53,323 nt of DNA, taken from the IMG/VR virus record IMGVR_UViG_3300035179_000011, positions 1 through 53,323 of that record; one strand, given 5' to 3'. The position numbers were made by a program, and so were the translations under genes. The notes beneath the pieces are model-generated. The model was given only the letters and a program-made list of their open reading frames with translations. It made no database searches and was not told the DNA's origin. Source of the stretch: a virus (lineage: Duplodnaviria; Caudoviricetes). Numbering within the stretch: position 1 is the stretch's first letter; every line of letters starts with the position of its first letter. This document shows positions 5,283 to 51,756 of this stretch, one piece after another.

Positions 5283-5604
5283 TTGGCTTTGCCTCTTGTT
5301 TTTCTTCGTTATCCGTCAAAATAGTCAAAACCCATTCTAAAGCTTCGATTTTAGCTCCGTAAGGTGTAGAAAAGAACCCCTCAGCTTGTTCAAATTGTTC
5401 TCGATAAAACTCAAGTTTTTCTTGGATTTGTTTTGCTACGTTATCTAACAAAATAAGAACATCAACAACCAATATTACGTCACTATTCGTATGAGCTATA
5501 AATCCGCTTGGAAAATGGCATTGGTTGACATTTCTGAAATCAACTAAGACATTGTAAAGCAACATAGCGTTATTGTTGATTTCTTCCTTCAGTTTGTTAG
5601 TCAT
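5266..5604 (-). CDS. Hypothetical protein
   Basis: Start MTNKLKEE overlaps the Cas4 stop. Confidence 0.6.
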   Translation of the reverse strand: MTNKLKEEINNNAMLLYNVLVDFRNVNQCHFPSGFIAHTNSDVILVVDVLILLDNVAKQIQEKLEFYREQFEQAEGFFSTPYGAKIEALEWVLTILTDNEEKQEAKPNAKEK

Positions 5605-6349
5605 CTTGATGTCCCCCTTGAAACGGGCACTTCGACTTATAGACATCTGGACATCTAAAACACTTGAATTTGCTCGGCGGGATCAGCGTGCTCGGATCGC
5701 GGAACTGTTTTAATATCCGCTCGATTTCCGTTTCGGTGCTTGTGGCATCATAATCTACAATGTCGTGTTTGCCGATTGGATCGCCTTTGCGTGTTAGATA
5801 GACGATTTCGCCGTGGCTTGTTTTGTAGCCACCGATTTTCAGTATCGGCTCAAAAATCCACATGTACACGCGGAGTTGAAATGATGCGGGAGCCAATTTG
5901 TAGTAGTCAATGACTTTCTGGGCACTCGTTTTGTATTCAATGAACGTTATGTCTCGTTCTGGACTCACGCGAAAATCGTCTACGCCGCTCGTCACCACAT
6001 GTCCAATCACGGTTTCGCCGTCGTACCACGCCCGCTGGAACACCATGTTTTCTTTCGTGTCCATGCCTGTTGAGCCTTCGCCGATGTCAATGGACTTTTC
6101 AACTTGAAACTTTGCTATGAAATCGTTGAACTCTTTTTCCCATGCGGATAAAGAACGTGCCTTGCTGATTTCGTCGTGGACTCGTTTTCCTATTTCCATG
6201 GCTTCATTGGATGGGGAACGGATGCCACTTGCTTGCAACCATGCTTGCACGGCGCAGTACCAATAATGCCCGAGAATACTCGCCCGTAGGTAACGGACTG
6301 TTTTGCCGTTTTGCCTTTGGAAGAACTTTGTCAAGTTTTCAAGCGGCAT
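5597..6349 (-). CDS. cas4: Cas4-like PD-(D/E)xK exonuclease
   Basis: N-terminal YWYC, GKRVH, VDD...IEYKT, QLRVY, and C-terminal CFRC...CPF completing a four-Cys Fe-S staple. Confidence 0.8.
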   Translation of the reverse strand: MPLENLTKFFQRQNGKTVRYLRASILGHYWYCAVQAWLQASGIRSPSNEAMEIGKRVHDEISKARSLSAWEKEFNDFIAKFQVEKSIDIGEGSTGMDTKENMVFQRAWYDGETVIGHVVTSGVDDFRVSPERDITFIEYKTSAQKVIDYYKLAPASFQLRVYMWIFEPILKIGGYKTSHGEIVYLTRKGDPIGKHDIVDYDATSTETEIERILKQFRDPSTLIPPSKFKCFRCPDVYKSKCPFQGGHQDD

Positions 6350-8906: not shown

Positions 8907-10067
8907 TCACCTGTGAACATGGGGCGAGTGACCCCATATATTCATATCCGCAATAATGTCAGATGGGGTTGGGCTGGTGTCAATTATATATACTTGCAAT
9001 TTGACACTATGTCCTTTGACGTTCTTTGGTATTGTTACAAAATAAGTGACTACTTGACCATTTGCCGAGCAAAAGAGTGCTGGTTGATGAGTAACGTCTG
9101 AAGCACTATTATAAGGATAGTATATGCCGTCAGTTACATCATAGATACGGTATCTGAATGCTAGCCATCCTGTTTGTCCATATTGGCAGATGCCACCCGA
9201 AATAAACAATTCTTCAATATCAGCATCACTAGGAATTGTAGTTGTTCCTACATCAGTCCAAGTTGCTTCAGGCACAGAATCATTCTCAAAGTTCGGATAT
9301 TGTATTACAAGATTTGCAATCACTTCTGTTGTTGGCGGCGTAGTTCTTTGTTCGCTGAACATAACATCGTCATAGTAAACCCACGCTGGCGCAGTCGTCG
9401 GCGTTTCGCAGTCCAAGCATATCCGCACGTATTTGGCAGTTGCAGGACTCGTGACTTCCTCAGAAAATGTGTTCCACGCGAGTTGTCCGTTTGCGTTTTC
9501 CTCAATGAAAGTTGGAGTTTCAAGGTCGACTTCGTTCTTGTTGTACCATCTTAACACTATGGTTACTTCGCCGTTATTTGCATATTGCGAATAACTTTTG
9601 ACGGAAAAGTAATATTTTTGGTTTGATGCCACGGCAATCAAGGTAGAACCACTTTCAACACGCGATCCCGTCGTGTTTGCTGTTATCTTGAGGCAGTATC
9701 CGCCCTTGTAGCCGTCGAGGATTTGTAATCTTGAACCAGAGCCACTAATCACTTGCCACGCTTCCCAGTAGTCGGGGATTCCGTCGCCGTTTCTGTCCTC
9801 TTCAAAGTAGGCGTTGGAGATCAAATTCTCGGCTTCGCCAGTGGAAGGAATAGAGGCGGTTGTCTGGTTGCCGTCGACTAATTGTGGCGAATCCGCGTCT
9901 TGCCAGTTGTCCAAATAAGTTGTTGCTTCTTCAGTACTATTCAACACAACTTCGCTTGACGGAATAAGCTTTGCAACTGGTCTTTCCACTTCGTATTCGG
10001 CACTTTCAACAACGTCTTTTTGGCTGTGAACATGTTTGGCAACCCGTTTGCGAGGCGTTAAACTCAT
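8907..10067 (-). CDS. Minor tail protein with a CBM-like jelly-roll domain
   Basis: NLISNAYFE...DGIPDYW...VYYDDVMF resembles CBM4/9-like domains; follows the tape measure. Confidence 0.65.
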   Translation of the reverse strand: MSLTPRKRVAKHVHSQKDVVESAEYEVERPVAKLIPSSEVVLNSTEEATTYLDNWQDADSPQLVDGNQTTASIPSTGEAENLISNAYFEEDRNGDGIPDYWEAWQVISGSGSRLQILDGYKGGYCLKITANTTGSRVESGSTLIAVASNQKYYFSVKSYSQYANNGEVTIVLRWYNKNEVDLETPTFIEENANGQLAWNTFSEEVTSPATAKYVRICLDCETPTTAPAWVYYDDVMFSEQRTTPPTTEVIANLVIQYPNFENDSVPEATWTDVGTTTIPSDADIEELFISGGICQYGQTGWLAFRYRIYDVTDGIYYPYNSASDVTHQPALFCSANGQVVTYFVTIPKNVKGHSVKLQVYIIDTSPTPSDIIADMNIWGHSPHVHR

Positions 10068-10765
10068 GGCGAACCACCCTGCGTAATCGCTCGTTTTAAT
10101 CGTTGCTTGTACAGTTCAAGCACTTCGTCCACGTCAGTTTTCGAATTCACATTCAACGTGTCTGGAAGGGCGACGCGCGATTGACTGTAAGCGTATGCTC
10201 CAACGCCTACGCCTACTGCAAGGGCAGCCAATCCAACGATAGTTGTTGCTTGAGCGGCACTTAACGCATGAAAAGCAGCGGTTAAACCGTGAATCATAGT
10301 AGTGATATGTGTTATGGCTGGCACAGCGTATCGCGTGATGCTCGACGCGAAACTTACAAATTGGATTCCCAAACTAACAGTCATCAAATTCGAATACAAC
10401 GCCATTCGCTGATACATGATTTGGGCGCGTTCGAGTTGCTGCATGGCACGATGGGCATCGTCGCTCGATGCTCCGCTTTTCTTGATTGCGTCGTTCAATC
10501 GTTCTTGTGCCATTTCAACGCCGATTGATGACGATTCCATCCTCATCATTCCGCTTTCCAACATGCTAACGTAAAATAGTCCCATCTGTGCTGAAAAAGC
10601 CAAGTTGCGGAACGCGTTGAAGCCTCGCATGCCCGTCGTTTCCATCGCTGTGCCAGCGTCTTCAGCAGCCCACTTAATATTGTAGAAGCCTTGCGACACT
10701 TCTTCGGCGACTGGCGTAACATATTGACTCGCGGTGAACACGCTTTTATATTCAATCCAACTCAT
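10064..10765 (-). CDS. Putative tape measure protein (very short)
   Basis: Follows the tail tube and chaperone genes; Ala/Gly/Met-rich helical sequence with hydrophobic segments and a coiled coil. Confidence 0.6.
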   Translation of the reverse strand: MSWIEYKSVFTASQYVTPVAEEVSQGFYNIKWAAEDAGTAMETTGMRGFNAFRNLAFSAQMGLFYVSMLESGMMRMESSSIGVEMAQERLNDAIKKSGASSDDAHRAMQQLERAQIMYQRMALYSNLMTVSLGIQFVSFASSITRYAVPAITHITTMIHGLTAAFHALSAAQATTIVGLAALAVGVGVGAYAYSQSRVALPDTLNVNSKTDVDEVLELYKQRLKRAITQGGSP

Positions 10766-10919
10766 TTTCTTTTCCACCAGTTTTTAATAGGGCGTTCATG
10801 GCTTCCCAGTACACCGCAATTTCGCAGAGTTGCCGCGCCGTCAAATCGTCAAGCCGCAGCATTCCCATCTGCGCCAGTCCCACCCGCAGTCCAATCCTAG
10901 TCTTTTGTTGGGCGACGAA
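10752..10919 (-). CDS. Putative frameshifted extension (gpGT-like) of the tail assembly chaperone
   Basis: The +1 frame is open for 55 codons (FVAQQKTRIG...LDDLTARQLCEIAVYWEAMNALL...ELD*) and fills the gap to the tape measure. Confidence 0.55.
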   Translation of the reverse strand, partial: FVAQQKTRIGLRVGLAQMGMLRLDDLTARQLCEIAVYWEAMNALLKTGGKENELD

Positions 10920-11247
10920 AAAGGCGGAACAATGCGGCAGCCTCGTTCTGGTTCAGCATGTTAAGTGGCAACACAACCGTTGACAATGCTTCGTACAGTT
11001 TGCTCGGCATGTCCTCGTCAATCGGCTTGCCATCCTTTAACACGGCTTTCTTTACGACTTCATATTGCAACTTGAACCGTGGAATTTCTTGTTCAACCGT
11101 CAAGTCCCGTGCTAGTTCGTCGCCAATGGCTAAGTATTCTCGCGCCGAAATAATGTGCACTGTATATTCGCCAGCCCACTTTTTCCCTATTGAATCGACG
11201 ATTTCCTTCGGAAGTGTAAATGTTTTGTGTGGTTCCATCGTTTTCAC
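10897..11247 (-). CDS. Tail assembly chaperone
   Basis: 116 aa between the tail tube and tape measure genes. Confidence 0.65.
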   Translation of the reverse strand: MKTMEPHKTFTLPKEIVDSIGKKWAGEYTVHIISAREYLAIGDELARDLTVEQEIPRFKLQYEVVKKAVLKDGKPIDEDMPSKLYEALSTVVLPLNMLNQNEAAALFRLFRRPTKD

Positions 11248-12051
11248 CTATGGTAAAGTCAGTTTATCGCCTGTCCATGTGAGAATTTCGTATGTTAAGT
11301 CGAGATTTTCCACTTGGTACGCGTCTTCGTTTACGGCTGCGTTTGTAAACGTGAATGTCTTGGTGACTGGCGTGCCCTGATTATCTGTCACCGCAATCAC
11401 AACATCTCGTTTCACTATTGCGTCATAACCGAACAATGGTGCGCCAGTCTTGACAAATTCGATTCTGCCAGTGTAGACGGGTTGACGCGGATACACTTCG
11501 CTGACGACTGCCCCAGTGCCAGTTGGCACGCGGGCAACCGAATTGTCCACGGCAAATCTTATGTTTGTCCACTTGGTAATCGATGTTCCACCGACTGAAG
11601 GTGCAAAACCAGTTTTTGTTATCGGGGTCAGACTATCGTACGTGACAGTCAGACTTTTCGTTTCGTAAGCGTTGCATATCATATTCAAAGTTGCTATGGC
11701 TGCTCCTCTCTGCCCCACGTTTATTTCGCAGCGATCCGTGTAGACATTTACAAGCCCTATAGCTGTCGTTCCGTCAGTCGCGTACAAATTGAAACTTGGC
11801 AAGTCGCCTTCAGCAGTAACAAAAGCGTATGGTTTTATGAACTGATCCAGCTTCAACAATTTCATTCGCATATTCACAGTCCAATAGATATTTGTCGCGT
11901 CGAGATTTAGCATTCGGCGTTGTCCAGTGCCGAGTTCTTGTTCTTGGTCGGTGTGCTTGGTGATGGTTGGTGCACTCGGAATGCCATCGATGTTGTAGGG
12001 TGTTGTGGCACTATATCTCGCTATTTTCCAACTTTTTCCTGTTGTAGACAT
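11248..12051 (-). CDS. Major tail (tube) protein
   Basis: 267 aa, Thr-rich beta protein at the canonical position after the neck genes. Confidence 0.7.
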   Translation of the reverse strand: MSTTGKSWKIARYSATTPYNIDGIPSAPTITKHTDQEQELGTGQRRMLNLDATNIYWTVNMRMKLLKLDQFIKPYAFVTAEGDLPSFNLYATDGTTAIGLVNVYTDRCEINVGQRGAAIATLNMICNAYETKSLTVTYDSLTPITKTGFAPSVGGTSITKWTNIRFAVDNSVARVPTGTGAVVSEVYPRQPVYTGRIEFVKTGAPLFGYDAIVKRDVVIAVTDNQGTPVTKTFTFTNAAVNEDAYQVENLDLTYEILTWTGDKLTLP

Positions 12052-13992: not shown

Positions 13993-14026
13993 TCTGCTTC
14001 ATCTCTAAATTTAAGTCAAAGACATT

Positions 14027-14058
14027 TTTAAACGCTCTTTTATATAGACAAACAACTG
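14027..14058 (-). promoter_or_regulatory. 32-bp structural-gene promoter, copy 2
   Basis: CAGTTGTTTGTCTATATAAAAGAGCGTTTAAA; matches 22314-22345. Confidence 0.7.
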
Positions 14059-14068
14059 GTTGGTTCAT

Positions 14069-15793
14069 TTACACGTCCTCGCACGAAATTGTGATTGGAT
14101 CAATGTCTGACATGCCTATGTCTATTGGCGTAATTGAAGACATGTCTATTACGATTTTGTAGTACGCCACAACAACTCCAAAGTAACCGTCAATTGCCAC
14201 GGTTTTCTGTGCTGCCAGTTTCTTCATGTATGTGTCCACGACAGCGTTTAGAGTCGTGACACGCCGAATGTACGTGTCAATGTTGGCTGTCACGGTAAAC
14301 GTTTTTGAAAAGTCAGAGTCAAGTGAAACCGATTTTTCTACGAGTTTCTCAAGAACTGTGTCAACGTTGCCCGTTAGAGTGTAAGTGTATAGTTGTTGAA
14401 TAATTTTTACGTCAATGCCGAACTGCTTTTGAATAACAGACCTTTTGAGTAATGAATCAAAATTACGTTGAAATTCGGGGGTTTTTTTGAAAACAGAATC
14501 AACATTAGGTTGTTTTAAATTGGTTTTTTCAAAGAACGAGTCAGCACCGAGTTGCTTCAGAATTGCCAACTTTTTGAGTAAAACATTAAATCCGCGCTGA
14601 ACTTCAACTGTTTTTTTCAAGAAACTGTCGAGGGCAACGTATCGCACCAAAGCCTTTCCTATATAAGCGTTCACGCCTACTGTTTTGGTTATTCCTCGTT
14701 TCTTTATGAACGCGTTAATAGTTCTGGATTTTGAAAACGTTTTTCTGAAGCGACCGTCAATGCCCATTGTTTTCTGGTAGTTTTTGAGCAAAATCGCGTC
14801 CACGTTTTTCGAGTTGAGAACGTCGTATTTTTTGAAAATAGCGTCGAGTTGACGGTCTAGATGAACAACCGTTATTGCACCCAATATTACGTCAAGTCCA
14901 AACGTCTTCAGTATTTCCTTTTTAAGTTGCACAACGTCAATGCCGTATTGTTCAAGAATCGCAAGTTTTCTGATTAAAGATGAAATGTCACTGCACTGTT
15001 GAACCGATTGTGCTTTAGTTATCGCGTCTATATTTCTGAGTCTTTCTTTTGAACTAGACTTAAATACTGAATCGACGGTTTTAGAGACAGAATATCCCTT
15101 TTTAAAAACAGCATCAGTATTAACTGTTTCTTGACTGAGTTTCTTGAAATCGCTGTCAATCGTTTTCTGTTTTAAAATCGCAAGTTTCTTGTTTACTATG
15201 TCAAAGTTTCTCTGTTTTTGAACACCTAATTTCTTGAGGGCAACGTCAATTAACGTCTGTTTTGATAATCTTTTCAACAACCAAGCGTCGATGCCGAGTG
15301 TTTTTTCAAGACGTTTCTTGAAATCGCCATCAATTGTTCTCTGCTTTAAAGCACCGAGTTTCTTGTTTAATATGTCAAAGTTTCTCTGTTTTTGGTAAAT
15401 TGCCTTTTCAACCACGGTTAAGTCTACACATTGCGTTATGCCGAGCTTTTTGAAAACGCTGTCAAACGCGGGTTCTTTTAGAAAGGTTTTTTTAATGACC
15501 GAATCAATAGAAAAAGTTTTTATGTTGATGTCGAGTTGTTCTCCAAAAAGAGAGGTATTTACTGTAGTTGTTCTTTCCGCCGTCAGAGTTGTTACTTTAA
15601 CGCTGTCGCCATTAGAGTAGCCGCTCGAATATTTCGTTGTATCGCCCAAATCAATCGCATATTCACCAACATTGTTAGTGTAAATCGTGCATTCTTGGCT
15701 TTTAGTCACGTTTCTTATGGTGACAGCTACGGTGTTTTGAAGAACGCCGTCCTTCTTGATTTTTCCGTAGATTACATAGGGATTTTGTGGCAT
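14069..15793 (-). CDS. Basic repeat protein with an N-terminal beta-sandwich domain and about 30 repeats of 14-15 aa
   Basis: Units such as KQRNFDILNKKLGAL, KQRTIDGDFKKRLE, KTLGIDAWLLKRLS. Confidence 0.75.
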   Translation of the reverse strand: MPQNPYVIYGKIKKDGVLQNTVAVTIRNVTKSQECTIYTNNVGEYAIDLGDTTKYSSGYSNGDSVKVTTLTAERTTTVNTSLFGEQLDINIKTFSIDSVIKKTFLKEPAFDSVFKKLGITQCVDLTVVEKAIYQKQRNFDILNKKLGALKQRTIDGDFKKRLEKTLGIDAWLLKRLSKQTLIDVALKKLGVQKQRNFDIVNKKLAILKQKTIDSDFKKLSQETVNTDAVFKKGYSVSKTVDSVFKSSSKERLRNIDAITKAQSVQQCSDISSLIRKLAILEQYGIDVVQLKKEILKTFGLDVILGAITVVHLDRQLDAIFKKYDVLNSKNVDAILLKNYQKTMGIDGRFRKTFSKSRTINAFIKKRGITKTVGVNAYIGKALVRYVALDSFLKKTVEVQRGFNVLLKKLAILKQLGADSFFEKTNLKQPNVDSVFKKTPEFQRNFDSLLKRSVIQKQFGIDVKIIQQLYTYTLTGNVDTVLEKLVEKSVSLDSDFSKTFTVTANIDTYIRRVTTLNAVVDTYMKKLAAQKTVAIDGYFGVVVAYYKIVIDMSSITPIDIGMSDIDPITISCEDV

Positions 15794-15798
15794 TTTTG

Positions 15799-18162
15799 TC
15801 ACCCGTAGTTGTGGTTCCAAATTCCCGCTGTGGTGCACCAGATGTAGAATTTATTATCGATGCTTGTAACTTGAATATTGGCGTTCACTGTGTAACCATA
15901 AACGAAGACGTATCTTGTTCCATTCGTATATTCCAAAACGCAGACAATCCAATTGATGTTATCCAAATTCAGGCTGATGTTGACCTGTCCTAGTGTATGT
16001 CCAACGTCGATTAATGTGGCTGAAAATGCGTTCCATCCCACGGAAAGAAGCGTTCCACCATATTTTGTGTCTAGTGGGTCTGCGTCCCAATTATCTGGAA
16101 TACCGTCGCCATCTGTGTCCGCATTAAACGGATTAGTATAATTTATAAAAAGTTCTTGATAATCGTTCCAAGTGTCGCCGTCACTATCCAATCCTTGTAA
16201 TGTAGAGTTACTTGGAAGATTTAAGATTATGAAGGTGCTGGCGTTTACCATGCTTACTAAGCACGGTTGTCCAGTTATTCCTGCTTTTAATCGGACGCTG
16301 AATTGATAAATTAGACTATCGTTAAAAGTGTGAATGTAAGGCGAGTTAGCCAAGTTTATATAGGCACAATCTAAATACCAATTATTATAAAGTGCCCCTC
16401 CCACAGTGAAATATAAATGTCTTTTCGAGGTTGCGTCGCCGTCAAATATGGTTGCGTTATACATTGTAGCGTCGTTCAATCGTTTTGAGTGCCATCCAAC
16501 ATAATTGAAATCTGTCGTGTTGGGTTGTGCACTATTCCACCACATATGAATGTAAACGTTGTTTATGACGTAAGAATTGCCGATGGTTGTTGTATTGTCA
16601 TACCATGCCATCACATAACCAGCGCAATAGCTTGTAGATTGATTTATTGGAGAAGCAGTTGCGTTCCAAATGCCCGTGTCTGTTCCCGACGCCCCGTCTT
16701 GTTCATGCGGAAACTGGTCGGGCGTACTGTAACCTGAACCTTGGTCGGTGTGTGCCCAATACCAATAATAAAACTGTTTATAGTTCAAGGTGGTTGTTGT
16801 ACAATTCATTATGAAGGTGCGGTTGTAAGCCTTTGAAATCCATTGATTTCCTGTGTTAACAAAAAATTTTATATCATTGACTGTTCCAGTGAGACTTGTG
16901 AGATTTTTGTATGCTGTCGCACCGTTTAATGTCATAGTGTAGTTTACGCCTTGGCATCGAACTTTCGCTTCTGTCGGCGTAAAGTTTCCGCAACTGATTT
17001 GTGTATAAAGCCAGTTGTGTGATTGTCTGCTATTGTTTATGGCTGAATCTCTGTCGGGTTTAACTATCGTTATTGTTGGTGTGCCTGAACTTCCAGTCAC
17101 ATTTAAGCGAATGCAATCAAAAAAGCTTCCAACACCGTATTGCGGTTTAAAGATAAGTTGTGCAGCATTCACTTTTGTTGGTGTGTTCAGGAAGGTTGAT
17201 ACGTATGCAACTGTGTGCCAGTGCCAAATATCTGTCCACGTTGTCCCAAACACATAGTCATATTGTGTCCACGTTGAGCCGTCTGTTAAGTTGAAATACC
17301 AATGATGTGCAGACTCGTCTTGAAGTGCAAAAACCTCTAAGGTAACGTTAGTAATTTGTATGAAAGTTGTGTCGGCAAAATCAAATTTTCCTTCTTTGCC
17401 TTGCGCTAAAGTAAGTTTAATATAGTTTGTCGGATAATCCCGCACATCTTCGTATGGGGATGTTCCAACGCAAGTTTGCGTTTGAAAATCCGTTGTTCTG
17501 CTTGCAACATAGAGAAGTTGATGTCCAGCGGCGGGAGTGTCTGGATGTCGATGTCCATAGTAAACTCTAACGGCGACACATGAACAATACGGTACATAAG
17601 TGTTAGCGGAATCGGCGCGTCCGTAAACTCCAGGTGCTGTTCCATTAATGTCATTGTAAGTCCATTCTACACCTGTTGATGGATTTGTTGTCCATGTATA
17701 AGTGTACCACTTGTAAACGGTCGTAAGACTTAATGCACCACTGTAATAACTGCCATATAACATAATTTTGCATGTTGTTCCGCTACCACTTGCTTTAAGT
17801 CGAGCATAAACGGTTACATTTATGTCATAATCCGATGGAAACCATTGCACATACCAGTTCTGTAATGTAAAATTTTCTTTATAATATAATGGATAATTTG
17901 CTGGACAGTAAACATAATCTGTGTCGTCTGGCGACGCAATAGTTTCATCAACTCTTAGATAGTCGTTAGTATCTGGATATTCTTCCCAATCCACAGAATA
18001 ACTGTCACCGTCCACATGTAATTCTTGCGTTTGCTGCGGAGTTCCACCAACGGACGGTGTTGGCGGAAACAAAACTATTGGAGTTAAAAGGGCAACAATT
18101 ATAGTAACAATTATGCTGATTGCCAACACAAATTTTTTCCATTCTTTCTTTATTGTTTCCAT
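15799..18162 (-). CDS. Membrane-anchored surface glycoprotein with TSP3-like Ca-binding repeats
   Basis: Basic N-terminus plus a long hydrophobic helix; about 23 N-x-S/T sequons; DSDGDTWND...DTDGDGIPD. Confidence 0.75.
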   Translation of the reverse strand: METIKKEWKKFVLAISIIVTIIVALLTPIVLFPPTPSVGGTPQQTQELHVDGDSYSVDWEEYPDTNDYLRVDETIASPDDTDYVYCPANYPLYYKENFTLQNWYVQWFPSDYDINVTVYARLKASGSGTTCKIMLYGSYYSGALSLTTVYKWYTYTWTTNPSTGVEWTYNDINGTAPGVYGRADSANTYVPYCSCVAVRVYYGHRHPDTPAAGHQLLYVASRTTDFQTQTCVGTSPYEDVRDYPTNYIKLTLAQGKEGKFDFADTTFIQITNVTLEVFALQDESAHHWYFNLTDGSTWTQYDYVFGTTWTDIWHWHTVAYVSTFLNTPTKVNAAQLIFKPQYGVGSFFDCIRLNVTGSSGTPTITIVKPDRDSAINNSRQSHNWLYTQISCGNFTPTEAKVRCQGVNYTMTLNGATAYKNLTSLTGTVNDIKFFVNTGNQWISKAYNRTFIMNCTTTTLNYKQFYYWYWAHTDQGSGYSTPDQFPHEQDGASGTDTGIWNATASPINQSTSYCAGYVMAWYDNTTTIGNSYVINNVYIHMWWNSAQPNTTDFNYVGWHSKRLNDATMYNATIFDGDATSKRHLYFTVGGALYNNWYLDCAYINLANSPYIHTFNDSLIYQFSVRLKAGITGQPCLVSMVNASTFIILNLPSNSTLQGLDSDGDTWNDYQELFINYTNPFNADTDGDGIPDNWDADPLDTKYGGTLLSVGWNAFSATLIDVGHTLGQVNISLNLDNINWIVCVLEYTNGTRYVFVYGYTVNANIQVTSIDNKFYIWCTTAGIWNHNYG

Positions 18163-19293: not shown

Positions 19294-21624
19294 CTAAGTC
19301 TTCGTCGGATAAACTTTGAAGTAATACGGCACTCCATCGATGTCTATTTTTACAAGTTTTGGCGTTCCAGAAAGCGTTGCGTCTGCTTCATTTAGTGGGT
19401 TTTTTATTTGATTATTCTTCATATCAAACTGAGTTGTATTGAAAAGATATTCAATAGTTCCAGCATAATCCAATTCAAGACCCGCATTATCTGCATATTG
19501 TCTCCAATCTTGATTGTGAATTTGTGCGAATCTAATACTTGGTGTCGGATTATCTCTACCTGCGTTGTAGGTTGATGCAAGCCATATAGTCGAACCGTCC
19601 AAATAAATTAGATTAGCACAACTTGCTCCTGTTGCGTATGGATATGGATATGAGTCCCAATAACCGCCTTGAACGCAAAAATTATCAAGAGTCGCAGAAG
19701 AATTTGCTGATGCTACTCCTGCGCCTGTTCCAGCCGTAATTGTTATTGCAGAACCATTGGCTATGACTGATGAGGCTGCTATAACCCATTGTCTGTTTGT
19801 GTTGTCATAACTTGCCAGTATTCCAATTTCTACCGCATCGTCTTTGACTTGTTTTCCGATGTCGGTAGTAACACAATTCACGTATCCCGTAGCACTTAGA
19901 TTCAACGATGAATGTGTTCTTATAATGCCTTGGAAAATTATGTAGTATGGGTCGCCTGATACTACCGCTTCAGAAAACGCAGATGCTACAGTGATTGTCT
20001 TTGTCGTTGCGTTGAATCCACTTATTGTTTTTGCTTCCCATCCATAGGTTGCACCTAAATAAACATATAGTATGCCGCCAATCCAGAAGTCTTTTGCCTG
20101 AACGAGGTGTTCACTCGTCGTGTCTATAAGCGTGGTTGTTGAACCGCCCGTCGCAGTCCAACCGAGACTTGAAAGTATTCCGTTTGCTTCAGCATACGCG
20201 TCATTTGCGATGTGTCCGTAACCAGAAATGTCCCATCCAAGACGATTAATACTTGCATCAACAGAAAACGTACACTGGTTTGCATTTCTATTGTTTATCT
20301 TTATTCCCGTTTCACAGAATACAACGCTTCCATGAAAATAATTTCGATTGGCTGTAGATGTATTTCCTATGTCAGAGTCAAGAAGAATGCCTATGCTTCC
20401 AGTTGGTATCACGTTTACAAAGGGGTCACGCCCGTGAATCTCTACATCAAAGTCATTTGTATAGCATCCCCACTCGCTATAATGAACGTTTACCTTTAAG
20501 CCGACTCCGTTTGTTGGAACATTTATTACTCTAAAATTGTGTCGTGTTTGCCAACAATCTTCGACGTGAATACCGATACTCGCAATCTGGTTCATGTCAA
20601 CTGTGCAATTTTGAATTCCGCCAAAAGAAGGGTAATGTCCATCCCGCGTATACTTTATCATTGTGTTAAATCCCAAAGTGGCTGTTGCCTGAATAGTCCA
20701 TCCGTTACAGTCTACTCGAATATGTTTATCGGTCAAAAGAAGGGTAGAATTTAATGGTGCTGTTTGCTCTCCAATAAACTGTATTGAGCCATAAAGAGTT
20801 ATGGCACCCACTGCAGCGTTGAAGACTGTCGCGAAATCAGTGTTACTAGAGAATATAGTGCCATCTTTGTCTAATGCATAGTATGTAGTGCCAGACTTGT
20901 ATAAACTTAGAACGAGTTTATATGGATGTAATCCGCCACCTCTACTGCCGTGTTGCGTATCAGTTAAAACTCCGCTTGCTCCACCAACTATATCTGGATG
21001 TTGCCCAGTGGTTGTTCGAGTTCCATGTATTGTATCGGTCATGGTTGTCCATGAAACGTCTGTTCCGTCGCTTTTCAACAGTTGATTTGCTGTGCCCTTA
21101 GCCAACCGACTCAGTTTAGGAGTGGCATTACCAACTAGAACATCGCCTCTGACAATTGACGCTGCTAAAGTGTCGCCGTGCTTTGCGGAAAGAATGTTGT
21201 GAACGTCTGCCGTGTTCTCGAAAGTTTGAACTGCTGAACCATTCCAAAACTTGTAAACGTTGCTGGTTGTGTTGAACCACCAATATCCTTTTTGGCTTGT
21301 GCCCCATCCAGTTGTTGACGGATCGCTCGCAAGTAGTGGACACGCCAACTGTTTGCCTTGGGCACTGTAGATTTTGCGTGCGCCCTGATAATCCTCTATG
21401 AAGAGAATCGAATTGCCATAAGTAACTGTGCCGTCCAACGTCATTTCTTTCAGGTAAATTATGCCGCCACTCGTGAGAGCGTTAACAGCGGCTTGCTGAA
21501 CGACGGCTTTGCTTGGGTCACTGTAATCTGTTCCGCCGCACGTATTGCACCGCGCCCAATACTTCGAGGTTGAAGTATCGTAATAAACCGTGTAACTCGA
21601 ATTTATCCTATCTTTTGTGCTCAT
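19294..21624 (-). CDS. Fibre/spike protein with a beta-helix-like central region
   Basis: Gly/Thr-rich; GDVLVG...LSRLAKGTANQLLKSDGTDVSW fibre motif; repeated GIxV/I strands; C-terminal YYFKVY. Confidence 0.7.
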   Translation of the reverse strand: MSTKDRINSSYTVYYDTSTSKYWARCNTCGGTDYSDPSKAVVQQAAVNALTSGGIIYLKEMTLDGTVTYGNSILFIEDYQGARKIYSAQGKQLACPLLASDPSTTGWGTSQKGYWWFNTTSNVYKFWNGSAVQTFENTADVHNILSAKHGDTLAASIVRGDVLVGNATPKLSRLAKGTANQLLKSDGTDVSWTTMTDTIHGTRTTTGQHPDIVGGASGVLTDTQHGSRGGGLHPYKLVLSLYKSGTTYYALDKDGTIFSSNTDFATVFNAAVGAITLYGSIQFIGEQTAPLNSTLLLTDKHIRVDCNGWTIQATATLGFNTMIKYTRDGHYPSFGGIQNCTVDMNQIASIGIHVEDCWQTRHNFRVINVPTNGVGLKVNVHYSEWGCYTNDFDVEIHGRDPFVNVIPTGSIGILLDSDIGNTSTANRNYFHGSVVFCETGIKINNRNANQCTFSVDASINRLGWDISGYGHIANDAYAEANGILSSLGWTATGGSTTTLIDTTSEHLVQAKDFWIGGILYVYLGATYGWEAKTISGFNATTKTITVASAFSEAVVSGDPYYIIFQGIIRTHSSLNLSATGYVNCVTTDIGKQVKDDAVEIGILASYDNTNRQWVIAASSVIANGSAITITAGTGAGVASANSSATLDNFCVQGGYWDSYPYPYATGASCANLIYLDGSTIWLASTYNAGRDNPTPSIRFAQIHNQDWRQYADNAGLELDYAGTIEYLFNTTQFDMKNNQIKNPLNEADATLSGTPKLVKIDIDGVPYYFKVYPTKT

Positions 21625-50183: not shown

Positions 50184-50426
50184 TTATCTTTTTTCTCTTT
50201 TCTGAACTGCTAATTCTAATATTTTCCTAAAGTTCCTTTTTGCTTTTATAGAATTATTCCATGTAAACTGTTTGCATGAACAACCATTAACACCGCATCT
50301 TCCATGTCCATCACCACGACCTTCTGGAAGACCATCAGGAAGAATTACGGAATCATCGTGTTGCCATTGATAATGACCACATTTGCATACACCCCATTTT
50401 TCTTTTGAATAAAGTTTTACGCTCAT
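50184..50426 (-). CDS. Cys/His-rich small protein
   Basis: CKCGH...H...CGVNGCSC. Confidence 0.6.
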   Translation of the reverse strand: MSVKLYSKEKWGVCKCGHYQWQHDDSVILPDGLPEGRGDGHGRCGVNGCSCKQFTWNNSIKAKRNFRKILELAVQKREKR

Positions 50427-51547
50427 TTCTTCTTCCCCAATATCATTATGTTCTGCAAGATATTATTCATTTCTTCTGTTGTATGCACTTTTGCTAAGAG
50501 ATTTTTGATTTCGTGTTGTGCTTGTGGCGGAAGTTTGCGGATTTGTTCCATAGCCACCATTTTTTGCACTTCGACAGCTGGCAATATTGGGCTGTCGCGG
50601 TGGTGCCCGTAAATTTCCAGTTCGGGCAAGCAACTCAGATACGCCTCGTACAGTTCCTCTGGATTTGGACGTGAATAAGCTTTGCCCTGTGCGCCCCGCG
50701 GTATGTGACCAAGCATGTGATCTACCCAATTTAACGGCACTTTCTTCTCCAAAATTGTTTGCACTCGTTTGCGGAGTGCGTGTGGTCTGAGCGGGCACAG
50801 TCCTTTGGGCGTGTTGATGCTACCGCCCGATTTCCAAAGACCGTCTGGCGCGCCTATCACGCCAGCCTTGTAAGCGTAGTGCTTGAACCGTTGAATTAGC
50901 GTGACGCTCTTGTAGTTCCACGGCTTTTCAGGATTGGCGTTTTCAAAGTAGCTCTCCAACTTAGTTTTTGCGTCGTGCCCGATGAATGTGACGTAATCAA
51001 ACGTGCCGCTGATGATCTTCGGGATAAAAACGGGGTATAGTGGCTTGTCTTCTTTCCAGTTTTCAGTTTGAAAGTTGGACGCGGCGAGTTGCGGGATTGC
51101 CCCGATTCGCAGCCCCATGTAACTATTCGCCAGTATCCAGCTTGCGTGCTGGAGCGGGGCAACGTCGCAAATTCGTCTTATCTCCTCGTTGTTCGGTATT
51201 TTCTCAAATTTACGAATTGTAGGCAGTGACGGCTGTTTACTTGTGAGCGGGATGCGATTGGCGTGGTAAAAGCTTTTCAAGTAGCCGAACATTATTGTAG
51301 CGGTGGTTTTGGTTGGATATTTATTCCAGAACTTGTCGATCAAGTCGTAGTGGCGGTTGATGTTTGTGGTGGCATCGCTTATTATTTGGTCGGGGTTCAA
51401 CTTGGTATATTCGGTGTAGAACTTGAGCGACATCAACGCAAATTGTTTCGTTGCCTTGCTCATTCCGCCGTTTTCCATGGCGCACGCTCGCTTTTTTAGT
51501 TGTGTGAACCATCGCTGGACTGACTCGAAGTTTTCAAGGTTTTTCAT
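50423..51547 (-). CDS. int: Tyrosine recombinase / integrase
   Basis: GLRIG (R), HALRK (HxxR), MLGH, KAY (catalytic Tyr); N-terminal helical domain. Confidence 0.9.
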   Translation of the reverse strand: MKNLENFESVQRWFTQLKKRACAMENGGMSKATKQFALMSLKFYTEYTKLNPDQIISDATTNINRHYDLIDKFWNKYPTKTTATIMFGYLKSFYHANRIPLTSKQPSLPTIRKFEKIPNNEEIRRICDVAPLQHASWILANSYMGLRIGAIPQLAASNFQTENWKEDKPLYPVFIPKIISGTFDYVTFIGHDAKTKLESYFENANPEKPWNYKSVTLIQRFKHYAYKAGVIGAPDGLWKSGGSINTPKGLCPLRPHALRKRVQTILEKKVPLNWVDHMLGHIPRGAQGKAYSRPNPEELYEAYLSCLPELEIYGHHRDSPILPAVEVQKMVAMEQIRKLPPQAQHEIKNLLAKVHTTEEMNNILQNIMILGKKK

Positions 51548-51756
51548 TTTAACCAACTAAGTTTCAATTCTTAATTTTTTCCCGTTAAACGTGATTTTTA
51601 TTAATTGTCCTTTTTTTGTAACTCCAAGAGAACATTCGCCGATAATTTTATTTTCGTCGTTTAGGTTCTTCTTAAAAATCCCTATCCATCCTGTATCTTC
51701 AATGAATGCTCTAAGTTGACTTTTGAAGTCTTTTTGGGTGCTGTCTAATTCATAAA

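What the first reader, a model, noticed from the sequence alone, without database searches (positions are those of the whole stretch)
10752..10923. Putative +1 ribosomal frameshift at CUU_UUU_CGU in the tail assembly chaperone
Seen: the chaperone ends CTT TTT CGT CGC CCA ACA AAA GAC TAG. The -1 frame closes after about 25 codons, whereas the +1 frame (TTC GTC GCC...) stays open for 55 codons, reads like a gpT tail (LDDLTARQLCEIAVYWEAMNALL) and ends overlapping the tape-measure start. Known: long-tailed viruses make gpG/gpGT mostly by -1 slippage (-2 in Mu); UUU_CGU is the +1 shift motif of influenza PA-X, where Phe-tRNA re-pairs from UUU to UUC before a slow Arg codon. Inference: a PA-X-like +1 (or -2) recoding site used on archaeal ribosomes, which I do not know to be described for this gene.
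Basis: partly seen in the sequence, partly recalled or inferred. Interest (0 to 1): 0.78.

Follow-up and report, generated by a model that had tools for sequence, protein, structure and literature searches.

The report
Plus-one frameshift in tail chaperone
A tailed virus, probably of archaea, most likely makes the long form of its tail-assembly helper protein when a few ribosomes slip one base forward at UUU_CGU, a signal already predicted but never demonstrated for other archaeal viruses, so this is a well-supported new example and not a new mechanism.

Summary
On the minus strand, a 113-aa chaperone gene lies between a tail-tube gene and a tape-measure-like gene. It ends five codons after CUU_UUU_CGU (10923-10915). 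The -1 frame closes after 26 codons. The +1 frame stays open to 10752.

The +1 frame encodes a real T domain. It matches the T domains of two distant relatives (E 4e-15 and 2e-7), and those relatives read T in the -1 frame after a canonical U_UUU_UUA. Conserved T residues lie upstream of every possible start codon. Four independent contigs share the T5 run and the frame layout. The longest invariant DNA block among them (51 nt) starts exactly at CUU.

Outside this clade, 7 of 7 chaperones of the same subclass keep Phe-Arg at this position. Six of six haloarchaeal myoviruses that I examined carry UUU_CGY before a +1-frame T.

My best reading is a programmed +1 shift of tRNA-Phe from UUU to UUC (about 0.6). 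Rivals are a -2 slip on the U5 run and separate initiation of T.

A TTT-CGn +1 shift in archaeal tail chaperones is in print (PMC7230728, PMC5009743). This is a new member of a known kind, untested experimentally. An archaeal host is likely but not proven.

The parts
11248..12051 (-). Tail tube protein gene, immediately upstream of the chaperone gene
   Evidence: ESM Atlas: by structure TM 0.87 to a PF18906 Phage_tube_2 cluster, by features 0.97. No Pfam or PHROG hit by sequence.
10897..11238 (-). G: tail assembly chaperone ORF, 113 aa from ATG 11238 (ORF listing gives GTG 11247); stop TAG 10899-10897
   Evidence: Relatives start at the same Met. 31 relatives at E<=1e-3. Model pLDDT 92.4. Best PDB matches are YqbN (Z 6.6) and the HK97 tail assembly chaperone 2ob9 (Z 6.0; Foldseek E 0.076). 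Many BFVD rows are named tail assembly chaperone, all at E>=1.3e-3.
10915..10923 (-). Proposed shift site CUU_UUU_CGU (T5 run 10922-10918)
   Evidence: Identical in 4 of 4 clade sequences. Phe-Arg is kept at this position in 7 of 7 other proteins of the subclass.
10873..10923 (-). 51-nt block invariant in window, L001, L002 and L003, starting at the C of CUU
   Evidence: Longest invariant run in the roughly 2.6-kb four-sequence alignment. P = 0.025 by shuffling columns of the local 285-column alignment. There are 8 variable columns in the 29 nt just upstream.
10752..10922 (-). T extension in the +1 frame (56 codons from the first Phe, then TGA 10754-52). The predicted +1 product G-T is 161 aa (P0044).
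   Evidence: Homologous to the -1-frame T of L004 (19/37 identical, E 4e-15) and of L005 (E 2e-7). 11 of 16 variable columns fall on third codon positions of this frame. First canonical start codon is GTG 10883, downstream of conserved residues.
10064..10765 (-). Tape-measure-like gene (233 aa from ATG 10765, preceded by GGTGG)
   Evidence: phrog_305 tail length tape measure protein, weak (E 0.0014). Position after G/T. Start region is conserved in L001-L004.

Best explanation
The gene at 10897-11238 (minus strand) is a lambda-G-type tail assembly chaperone. Most ribosomes stop at TAG 10899-97 and make the 113-aa G protein. A minority shift one base forward at CUU_UUU_CGU. With tRNA-Phe on UUU in the P site and the fairly rare CGU waiting in the A site, the tRNA re-pairs with UUC. 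Translation then continues in the +1 frame through 54 more codons and gives a 161-aa G-T protein (junction ..LFRLF|VAQQK..) that ends just inside the tape-measure gene. By analogy with lambda gpG/gpGT (inferred), G and the G part of G-T coat the tape measure protein, and the T part recruits the tail tube protein. Shown here: gene order, T homology, the frame relation, conservation of the site, and coding constraint on the +1 frame. Inferred: that the shift is ribosomal, that it is +1 and not -2, its efficiency, and the role of the products.
For: (1) Context: the order is tube gene, G, then a tape-measure-like gene. (2) The +1 ORF is a T domain. BLASTP to the T of L004 gives 19/37 identical, E 4e-15, and to L005 E 2e-7. 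In those two lineages T is in the -1 frame after U_UUU_UUA within the conserved Leu-Phe-Leu of G. (3) No canonical start codon lies between the upstream stop and the conserved T residues in window, L001, L004 or L005. In the window the first is GTG at ORF codon 23, while the conserved Thr-Arg-Ile-Gly is at codons 17-20. (4) The point of frame change is bracketed. In the 29 nt before CUU the clade has 8 variable columns, and they change the +1-frame peptide. In the 51 nt from CUU onward there are none. Further down, 11 of 16 variable columns are third positions of the +1 frame. (5) Of the 41 relatives that carry the anchor motif, 9 (2 of this clade and 7 others) have x-Phe-Arg at one fixed position three residues after the Leu-Phe-Leu position. 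29 have the [L/I/Y/T]-Phe-[L/F] form, 1 has Phe-Ser and 2 are unclear. 4 of the 7 others stop right after the Arg. The codon before Phe can be Cys or Ser, which fits a UUU_C slip better than a U-run slip. (6) An unrelated chaperone family gives the same picture. 6 of 6 Hafunaviridae examined (four genera, G identity down to 34%) have NNN_UUU_CG[C/U] near the G stop and T in the +1 frame. (7) CGT is the 6th rarest of 61 sense codons in 59 crudely called ORFs of the window (6.1 per 1000). (8) T5 is real.
Against: There is no protein or RNA evidence, and no RNA run holds the stretch. DNA of the 7 other x-Phe-Arg relatives could not be fetched, so UUU_CGN and the +1 frame are unverified there; Arg could be AGR. 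In-frame TTT_CGN is not avoided in the window's genes (8 seen, 9.4 expected), so the motif alone cannot be a strong signal. CGT is only moderately rare, and the host's tRNA pool is unknown. No stimulatory RNA structure was found (z -0.36). The U5 run also allows perfect re-pairing at -2. A GGTGG lies 11 nt before ATG 10868, so separate initiation of a short T is conceivable. GenBank records of Hafunaviridae label the same layout 'putative -2'.
Confidence: 0.58

Rival explanations
1. A -2 ribosomal slip on the U5 run. tRNA-Phe moves from UUU (10920-18) back two bases to UUU, giving the same T extension with one extra Phe (..LFRLFF|VAQQK..), as proposed for phage Mu (recalled) and as annotated for Hafunaviridae.
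For: C_UUU_UUC allows perfect re-pairing two bases back. The relatives' site is a U7 run used for backward slippage. GenBank notes read 'putative programmed translational -2 frameshift' in 4 of the 5 Hafunaviridae records fetched.
Against: In 6 of 6 Hafunaviridae the codon before UUU is AAG, GAA or UCC, which gives poor -2 re-pairing, yet UUU_CGY is kept. In this family the residue before Phe is Cys or Ser in 2 of 7 relatives. Conservation of Arg after Phe is explained by +1, not by -2.
Confidence: 0.13
2. There is no fusion. T is translated on its own as a 38-43-aa peptide from GTG 10883 or ATG 10868/10862, by an internal Shine-Dalgarno sequence or by re-initiation after the G stop.
For: GGTGG lies 11 nt before ATG 10868 and inside the invariant block. 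Gene callers call a 42-aa ORF from the GTG (P0045). Each lineage has a Met codon somewhere before the T core.
Against: Residues conserved between window and L004 lie upstream of every canonical start. Met positions differ in the three lineages. The spacing of 11 nt is longer than the 5 and 8 nt seen at the G and tape-measure starts. Relatives keep a textbook -1 heptamer at the matching place. In lambda, T works only when tethered to G (recalled).
Confidence: 0.14
3. The shift into the +1 frame occurs elsewhere in the 18-codon overlap, for example tRNA-Lys slipping from AAA to AAG at ACA_AAA_GAC, two codons before the stop.
For: AAA_G allows +1 re-pairing and lies in the invariant block.
Against: No slow codon follows it. 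It has no counterpart in relatives, whose G tails after Phe-Arg vary or are absent.
Confidence: 0.05
4. Transcriptional slippage at the T5 run (loss of one U or gain of two) produces an mRNA with G and T in one frame.
For: A homopolymer sits at the right place.
Against: Five bases is short for polymerase slippage; known sites have about 7-9 or more (recalled). Conservation of the following CGN is not explained.
Confidence: 0.04
5. Artefact or decay. A frameshift mutation or assembly error has split an ancestral arrangement, and T is no longer made.
For: Relatives have T in another frame.
Against: Four contigs and two proteins from separate records share the layout. An independent assembly at depth 20 agrees. 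T shows purifying selection in the +1 frame, with 11 of 16 changes at third positions.
Confidence: 0.04

Closest known systems
Tail assembly chaperone pair of Hafunaviridae (HSTV-2, HF1, HF2, Serpecor1, Hardycor2, HRTV and HCTV isolates): predicted +1 shift at TTT-CGC (PMC7230728; review PMC5009743)
   Same: A virus of archaeal type. G lies between the tube and tape-measure genes. T is in the +1 frame. An in-frame UUU_CG[C/U] sits a few codons before the G stop inside a conserved block. This was verified here in 6 of 6 records. It is also only predicted, never demonstrated.
   Different: The G protein family is unrelated (no tblastn match to any phage record). Those viruses are myoviruses of halophiles, and this one comes from a sediment metagenome at 35-48% GC. 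Here the UUU is part of a U5 run preceded by CUU. Relatives within the same G family use a -1 heptamer.
Influenza A PA-X (UCC_UUU_CGU) and the plant amalgavirus UUU_CGN +1 frameshift motif (Firth 2012 and Nibert 2016, seen only as references in PMC7230728)
   Same: Same core, UUU_CGN, with the proposed P-site tRNA-Phe re-pairing to UUC before a slowly decoded Arg codon.
   Different: Those are eukaryotic ribosomes, RNA viruses and unrelated proteins. Their E-site codon is UCC, not CUU. The PA-X shift was shown experimentally and this one has not been.
Lambda gpG/gpGT and the conserved -1 G-T frameshift of long-tailed phages (Xu 2004, recalled; review passages); also HVTV-1, HCTV-1, -2, -5 and this family's own L004 and L005 (U_UUU_UUA)
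   Same: Same gene position, two products sharing an N-terminal part, a T domain, and the presumed role in tail assembly. The G fold resembles the HK97 chaperone weakly.
   Different: The direction of the shift differs. The window has no X_XXY_YYZ heptamer leading to T, and its -1 frame closes after 26 codons.
Phage Mu -2 G-T frameshift
   Same: T lies in the frame reached by -2, which equals +1. The U5 run here permits -2 re-pairing.
   Different: The conserved following Arg codon and the non-U preceding codons in related cases point to +1.

Membership tests
gpG/gpGT-type tail assembly chaperone pair | Gene lies between the tail tube gene and the tape measure gene | tested here: met
   The upstream gene is Phage_tube_2-like (TM 0.87). 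The downstream gene has a weak phrog_305 tape-measure hit (E 0.0014).
gpG/gpGT-type tail assembly chaperone pair | G has the fold of known tail assembly chaperones | tested here: inconclusive
   The model is confident (pLDDT 92.4). The top PDB rows are YqbN (Z 6.6), HK97 chaperone 2ob9 (Z 6.0) and 5ir0 (Z 5.4), above the rest but under the tool's caution line of Z 8. Foldseek gives E 0.076. BFVD rows named tail assembly chaperone are all at E>=1.3e-3. No Pfam or PHROG hit.
gpG/gpGT-type tail assembly chaperone pair | A second ORF (T) overlaps the 3' end of G in another frame, lacks its own start, and is conserved | tested here: met
gpG/gpGT-type tail assembly chaperone pair | Both G and G-T are made in a fixed ratio and are needed for tail assembly | not testable with these tools
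   No RNA or protein data are available.
UUU_CGN +1 programmed frameshift (PA-X, amalgavirus and HF1-group type) | In-frame UUU followed by CGN, with the extension in the +1 frame | tested here: met
   CUU_UUU_CGU at 10923-10915, with the +1 ORF running to 10752.
UUU_CGN +1 programmed frameshift (PA-X, amalgavirus and HF1-group type) | Motif conserved among relatives beyond the background | tested here: inconclusive
   The DNA is identical in 4 of 4 clade members and starts the longest invariant block. Phe-Arg is kept in 7 of 7 more distant proteins, but their DNA could not be fetched.
UUU_CGN +1 programmed frameshift (PA-X, amalgavirus and HF1-group type) | The A-site CGN codon is slowly decoded in the host | tested here: inconclusive
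   CGT is 6.1 per 1000, 6th rarest of 61 in the virus's own ORFs. The host and its tRNAs are unknown, and the virus carries no tRNA gene.
UUU_CGN +1 programmed frameshift (PA-X, amalgavirus and HF1-group type) | Junction peptide shows one Phe followed by +1-frame residues | not testable with these tools
   Needs mass spectrometry or a reporter.
Canonical -1 G-T frameshift (X_XXY_YYZ) | Slippery heptamer in the G frame leading into a T ORF in the -1 frame | tested here: not met
   In the window the -1 frame closes after 26 codons and has no T homology. The feature is met in relatives L004 and L005/L006 (U_UUU_UUA).
Mu-type -2 G-T frameshift | Run allowing re-pairing two bases back, with T in the -2 (= +1) frame | tested here: inconclusive
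   The U5 run allows it. Comparative data lean to +1.
Archaeal tailed virus | Hallmark genes closest to those of archaeal viruses or archaea | tested here: inconclusive
   Major capsid protein: 9 of 9 matching phage-collection records are archaeal viruses (33% identity over 99%, E 2e-46). PolB: the best solved relatives are family-B polymerases of the 773-775-aa thermostable type and Pol delta. The portal's best hit is a haloarchaeal virus, but 11 of 13 records are bacterial phages. PolB tblastn hits only bacterial phages, weakly. L006 sits in a bacterial MAG.

The most novel reading that the evidence does not exclude
UUU_CGN is a general +1 recoding signal of archaeal translation. It has arisen at least twice independently in tail chaperone genes (Hafunaviridae and this unrelated family). 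In this family it replaced an ancestral -1 U_UUU_UUA heptamer and sits three codons downstream of it. Archaeal ribosomes would then share with eukaryotic ones the PA-X-type susceptibility, and viruses could switch between -1 and +1 at the same functional joint.
Probability: 0.35. Interest if true: 0.6.

Novelty: new member of a known kind. Interest (0 to 1): 0.42.

Why it matters
Programmed +1 frameshifting has never been shown experimentally in an archaeon. The tail chaperone joint is a natural reporter, because the long product cannot be made without the shift. This locus adds a second, unrelated chaperone family with UUU_CGN before a +1-frame T. It also has close kin that use a classical -1 heptamer at the matching spot, so the two modes can be compared in nearly the same protein context. 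For annotation, the 161-aa G-T product is missed by gene callers, which call a 42-aa orphan ORF instead.

Tried and rejected
Scans of viral contigs with G, the tube protein, alignments A2 and A5, and P0034 gave no true relative. L010 is a chance pattern match with no open frame.

Alignments A1 and A2 were too diverse for some scans, so I used the smaller sets A2 and A3.

tblastn of the tube protein, G and the tape-measure-like protein against the phage collection gave no match.

The genome-contig scan gave only L006, which encodes the same G and T proteins as L005.

A search with the T ORF found only the clade's own 42-aa call, P0045.

No RNA holder is listed for the stretch. Only contigs could be laid, not raw reads.

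An RNA fold of 111 nt around the site is no better than shuffles (z -0.36). The pairing it proposes uses upstream bases that vary in L001-L003, so I claim no stimulatory structure.

Virus vir519 (Methanofastidiosa), whose capsid protein matches, has no annotated chaperone pair, and I did not analyse it further.

The papers of Pietila 2013 and Sencilo 2013 are not held.

Relatives of the genome cannot be drawn for a virus record.

Tandem Repeats Finder found nothing in 14000-15900.

I considered and rejected a shift of tRNA-Leu from CUU to UUU (RF2-like), because the following UUU codon is common (24.5 per 1000).

Full report
**Observation.** All genes discussed lie on the minus strand.
- The ORF 10897-11247 ends with CGC CTT TTT CGT, four more codons and TAG. 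Its likely start is ATG 11238, five bases after GGTGA.
- The -1 frame closes 26 codons after the run.
- The +1 frame is open from 10952 to TGA 10754-52. That is 66 codons, 56 of them from the first Phe of the run.
- The +1 frame ends 14 nt inside the next ORF if that ORF starts at ATG 10765, which is preceded by GGTGG.
- The run is not an assembly slip. Proteins P0001 and P0002 (93-95% identical) end with the same residues. Three metagenome contigs from other records (L001-L003) have the same T5 and the same frames.
- A separately assembled contig of run X1 (14,036 nt, word depth 20.4) is identical over 10500-11400. That run may be the window's source.

**What the genes are.**
- The window is a virus record. 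It carries a major head protein (phrog_24667, E 8e-52), a head-tail adaptor, a portal, a family-B DNA polymerase, a primase-polymerase and a DNA methylase.
- The gene upstream of the chaperone (11248-12051) has no sequence-family hit. The ESM Atlas places it with tail tube proteins (PF18906; TM 0.87 by structure, 0.97 by features).
- The gene downstream (10064-10765) has a weak tape-measure hit (phrog_305, E 0.0014).
- The chaperone itself has no Pfam or PHROG hit. Its model is confident (pLDDT 92.4).
- Its best solved-structure matches are YqbN (Z 6.6), the HK97 tail assembly chaperone 2ob9 (Z 6.0; Foldseek E 0.076) and 5ir0 (Z 5.4). They stand above the rest but below the tool's caution line.
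- Many named BFVD matches are tail assembly chaperones, all at E>=1.3e-3.
- Position and fold together make a G-type chaperone the natural reading.

**The +1 ORF is a T domain, and relatives reach it by -1.**
- An exhaustive HMMER search found 31 relatives of G at E<=1e-3. A profile search added 11 more.
- DNA was obtainable for two distant lineages: L004 (46% identical G) and L005, whose G and T proteins are the same as those of L006 (38%).
- In both lineages G carries C-UUU-UUU-UA, so U_UUU_UUA sits in the zero frame within a conserved Leu-Phe-Leu. A T-like ORF follows in the -1 frame.
- The window's +1 ORF aligns with these -1 ORFs: 19 of 37 identical, E 4e-15, with L004, and E 2e-7 with L005.
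- The homologous domain is therefore in a different frame in the window's clade. The -1 relatives show that the family makes G-T by recoding, and that this clade needs +1 (or -2) to do the same.

**Where the frame changes.**
- No ATG, GTG or TTG lies between the upstream stop and the conserved T residues in window, L001, L004 or L005. In the window the first is GTG at ORF codon 23, while the Thr-Arg-Ile-Gly shared with L004 is at codons 17-20. In L004 the first start comes 13 residues into the aligned region.
- Within the clade, the 29 nt before CUU hold 8 variable columns. These columns change the +1-frame peptide and largely spare the G frame.
- From the C of CUU onward there is a 51-nt invariant block (10923-10873). 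It is the longest in the roughly 2.6-kb four-sequence alignment. The shuffle test on the local 285 columns gives P = 0.025.
- Further downstream, 11 of 16 variable columns are third positions of the +1 frame. By hand I calculate a binomial P of about 0.004.
- The constraint therefore passes from frame 0 to frame +1 at the T-run or just after it.

**Which mechanism.**
- I aligned the 41 relatives that carry the anchor motif on it:

| C-terminal form | Proteins |
|---|---|
| [L/I/Y/T]-Phe-[L/F], at the position of the -1 heptamer | 29 |
| x-Phe-Arg, three residues further on | 9 (2 of the window's clade, 7 others) |
| Phe-Ser at that place | 1 |
| Unclear | 2 |

- In T, the window has three fewer residues between Phe-Phe and the conserved block than L004 and L005. 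The site therefore appears displaced by three codons in this subclass.
- 4 of the 7 other x-Phe-Arg proteins stop right after the Arg. The residue before Phe is Leu in 5, Cys in 1 and Ser in 1. This fits a conserved UUU_CGN better than a conserved U-run.
- An unrelated family gives the same picture. I fetched six Hafunaviridae from four genera (HSTV-2, HRTV-14, HF1, HRTV-15, HRTV-25, HRTV-27; G identity down to 34%). All six have NNN_UUU_CG[C/U] 2-9 codons before the G stop and T in the +1 frame. The preceding codon is UCC, AAG or GAA, which makes a -2 re-pairing poor.
- CGT is the 6th rarest of 61 sense codons in the window's own ORFs (6.1 per 1000).
- In-frame TTT_CGN is not avoided in those ORFs (8 seen, 9.4 expected), so any shift at the bare motif must be inefficient.
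- No RNA structure stands out.
- I put +1 on UUU_C at about 0.58, -2 on the U5 run at 0.13, separate initiation of T at 0.14, and another site, RNA slippage or decay at about 0.04-0.05 each.

**Host.**
- For an archaeal host: the capsid protein matches only archaeal viruses in the phage collection (9 of 9 records: 8 haloarchaeal, 1 Methanofastidiosa; 32-34% identity over 83-99%).
- Also for it: the polymerase's best solved relatives are family-B polymerases. The table names Pyrococcus abyssi, Deep Vent and 'thermostable B' enzymes, then Pol delta. That the 773-775-aa chains are Thermococcales enzymes is recalled.
- Against or neutral: the portal's best hit is a haloarchaeal virus, but 11 of 13 records are bacterial phages. 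PolB tblastn finds only weak bacterial-phage hits. L006 sits on a 3.7-kb contig of a bacterial MAG.
- An archaeal host is likely (about 0.8) but not shown.

**What is known.**
- The review PMC5009743 (passages read) states that G-T frameshifting is conserved in long-tailed phages. It says HVTV-1 and HCTV-1, -2 and -5 appear to use -1, and that HSTV-2 'very likely' uses +1.
- I confirmed the join spans in the records: HVTV-1 is -1 and HSTV-2 is +1.
- PMC7230728 (passage read) reports that the six HF1-group genomes need a +1 shift. It points to TTT-CGC in a perfectly conserved 15-bp region, cites the PA-X and amalgavirus TTT-CGn work, and says experiments are needed.
- GenBank records of newer Hafunaviridae label the join 'putative -2'.
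- My searches for the chaperone together with PA-X, or with archaeal virus and TTT, found no further paper.
- Earlier AI notes of this scan list five other archaeal-virus chaperones read as +1 at UUU_C. I treat these as leads only.

**Verdict.** What this locus adds:
- a second, unrelated chaperone family with the same signal;
- a non-halophilic sediment virus;
- same-family relatives that use a classical -1 heptamer three codons upstream.

It is a new member of a known kind, of moderate interest, and a good substrate for the first experimental test of +1 frameshifting on archaeal ribosomes.

Noticed in passing
window 10752-10790 versus L001-L003: The three close relatives carry 26 extra bases between the end of T and the tape-measure start. 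Their T ends at its own TAA before a separate Shine-Dalgarno sequence. In the window the deletion makes the T stop overlap the tape-measure start.
   Followed up: partly
window 14069-15838 (-): A 589-aa ORF made of many diverged repeats of a roughly 20-residue unit ending in Phe-Lys-Lys or Leu-Lys-Lys, seen in the translation. No DNA-level tandem repeat and no family hit. Possibly a fibre or decoration protein.
   Followed up: partly
window 15799-18162 (-) and 19294-21624 (-): Two very large ORFs (787 and 776 aa) with no Pfam or PHROG hit sit between the capsid gene and the neck and tail genes, an unusual place for such large genes.
   Followed up: no
window 5597-6349 (-): A Cas4-like nuclease (PF01930 E 1.5e-6; TIGR00372 E 2e-9, below cut-off) is encoded at the end of the tail module.
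   Followed up: no
window 8907-10067 (-): The ORF right after the tape-measure-like gene has a CBM_4_9 carbohydrate-binding domain (E 2.7e-7, above the Pfam cut-off). It is a candidate receptor-binding tail protein.
   Followed up: no
L006 (genome contigs) and L005: A 3.7-kb contig binned in a Babeliales (bacterial) MAG encodes the same G and T proteins as metagenome locus L005, read over the stretch compared. It is probably a viral contig binned by mistake.
   Followed up: partly
P0002 (relative of G): A 126-aa database protein has an unrelated N-terminal 30 residues and then matches G. It looks like a frame error or indel near the start in that 1.1-kb contig.
   Followed up: no
GenBank records MZ334492, MZ334516, MZ334521, MZ334522 versus KC117376: The same +1-frame chaperone layout is annotated 'putative -2 frameshift' in the newer Hafunaviridae records, while the HSTV-2 join span fits +1. 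The databases are inconsistent on the direction.
   Followed up: yes
window 50423-51556 (-): A 377-aa ORF has a weak match to archaeal XerA-type tyrosine recombinase (E 1e-5, far below cut-off). This hints at a temperate lifestyle.
   Followed up: no
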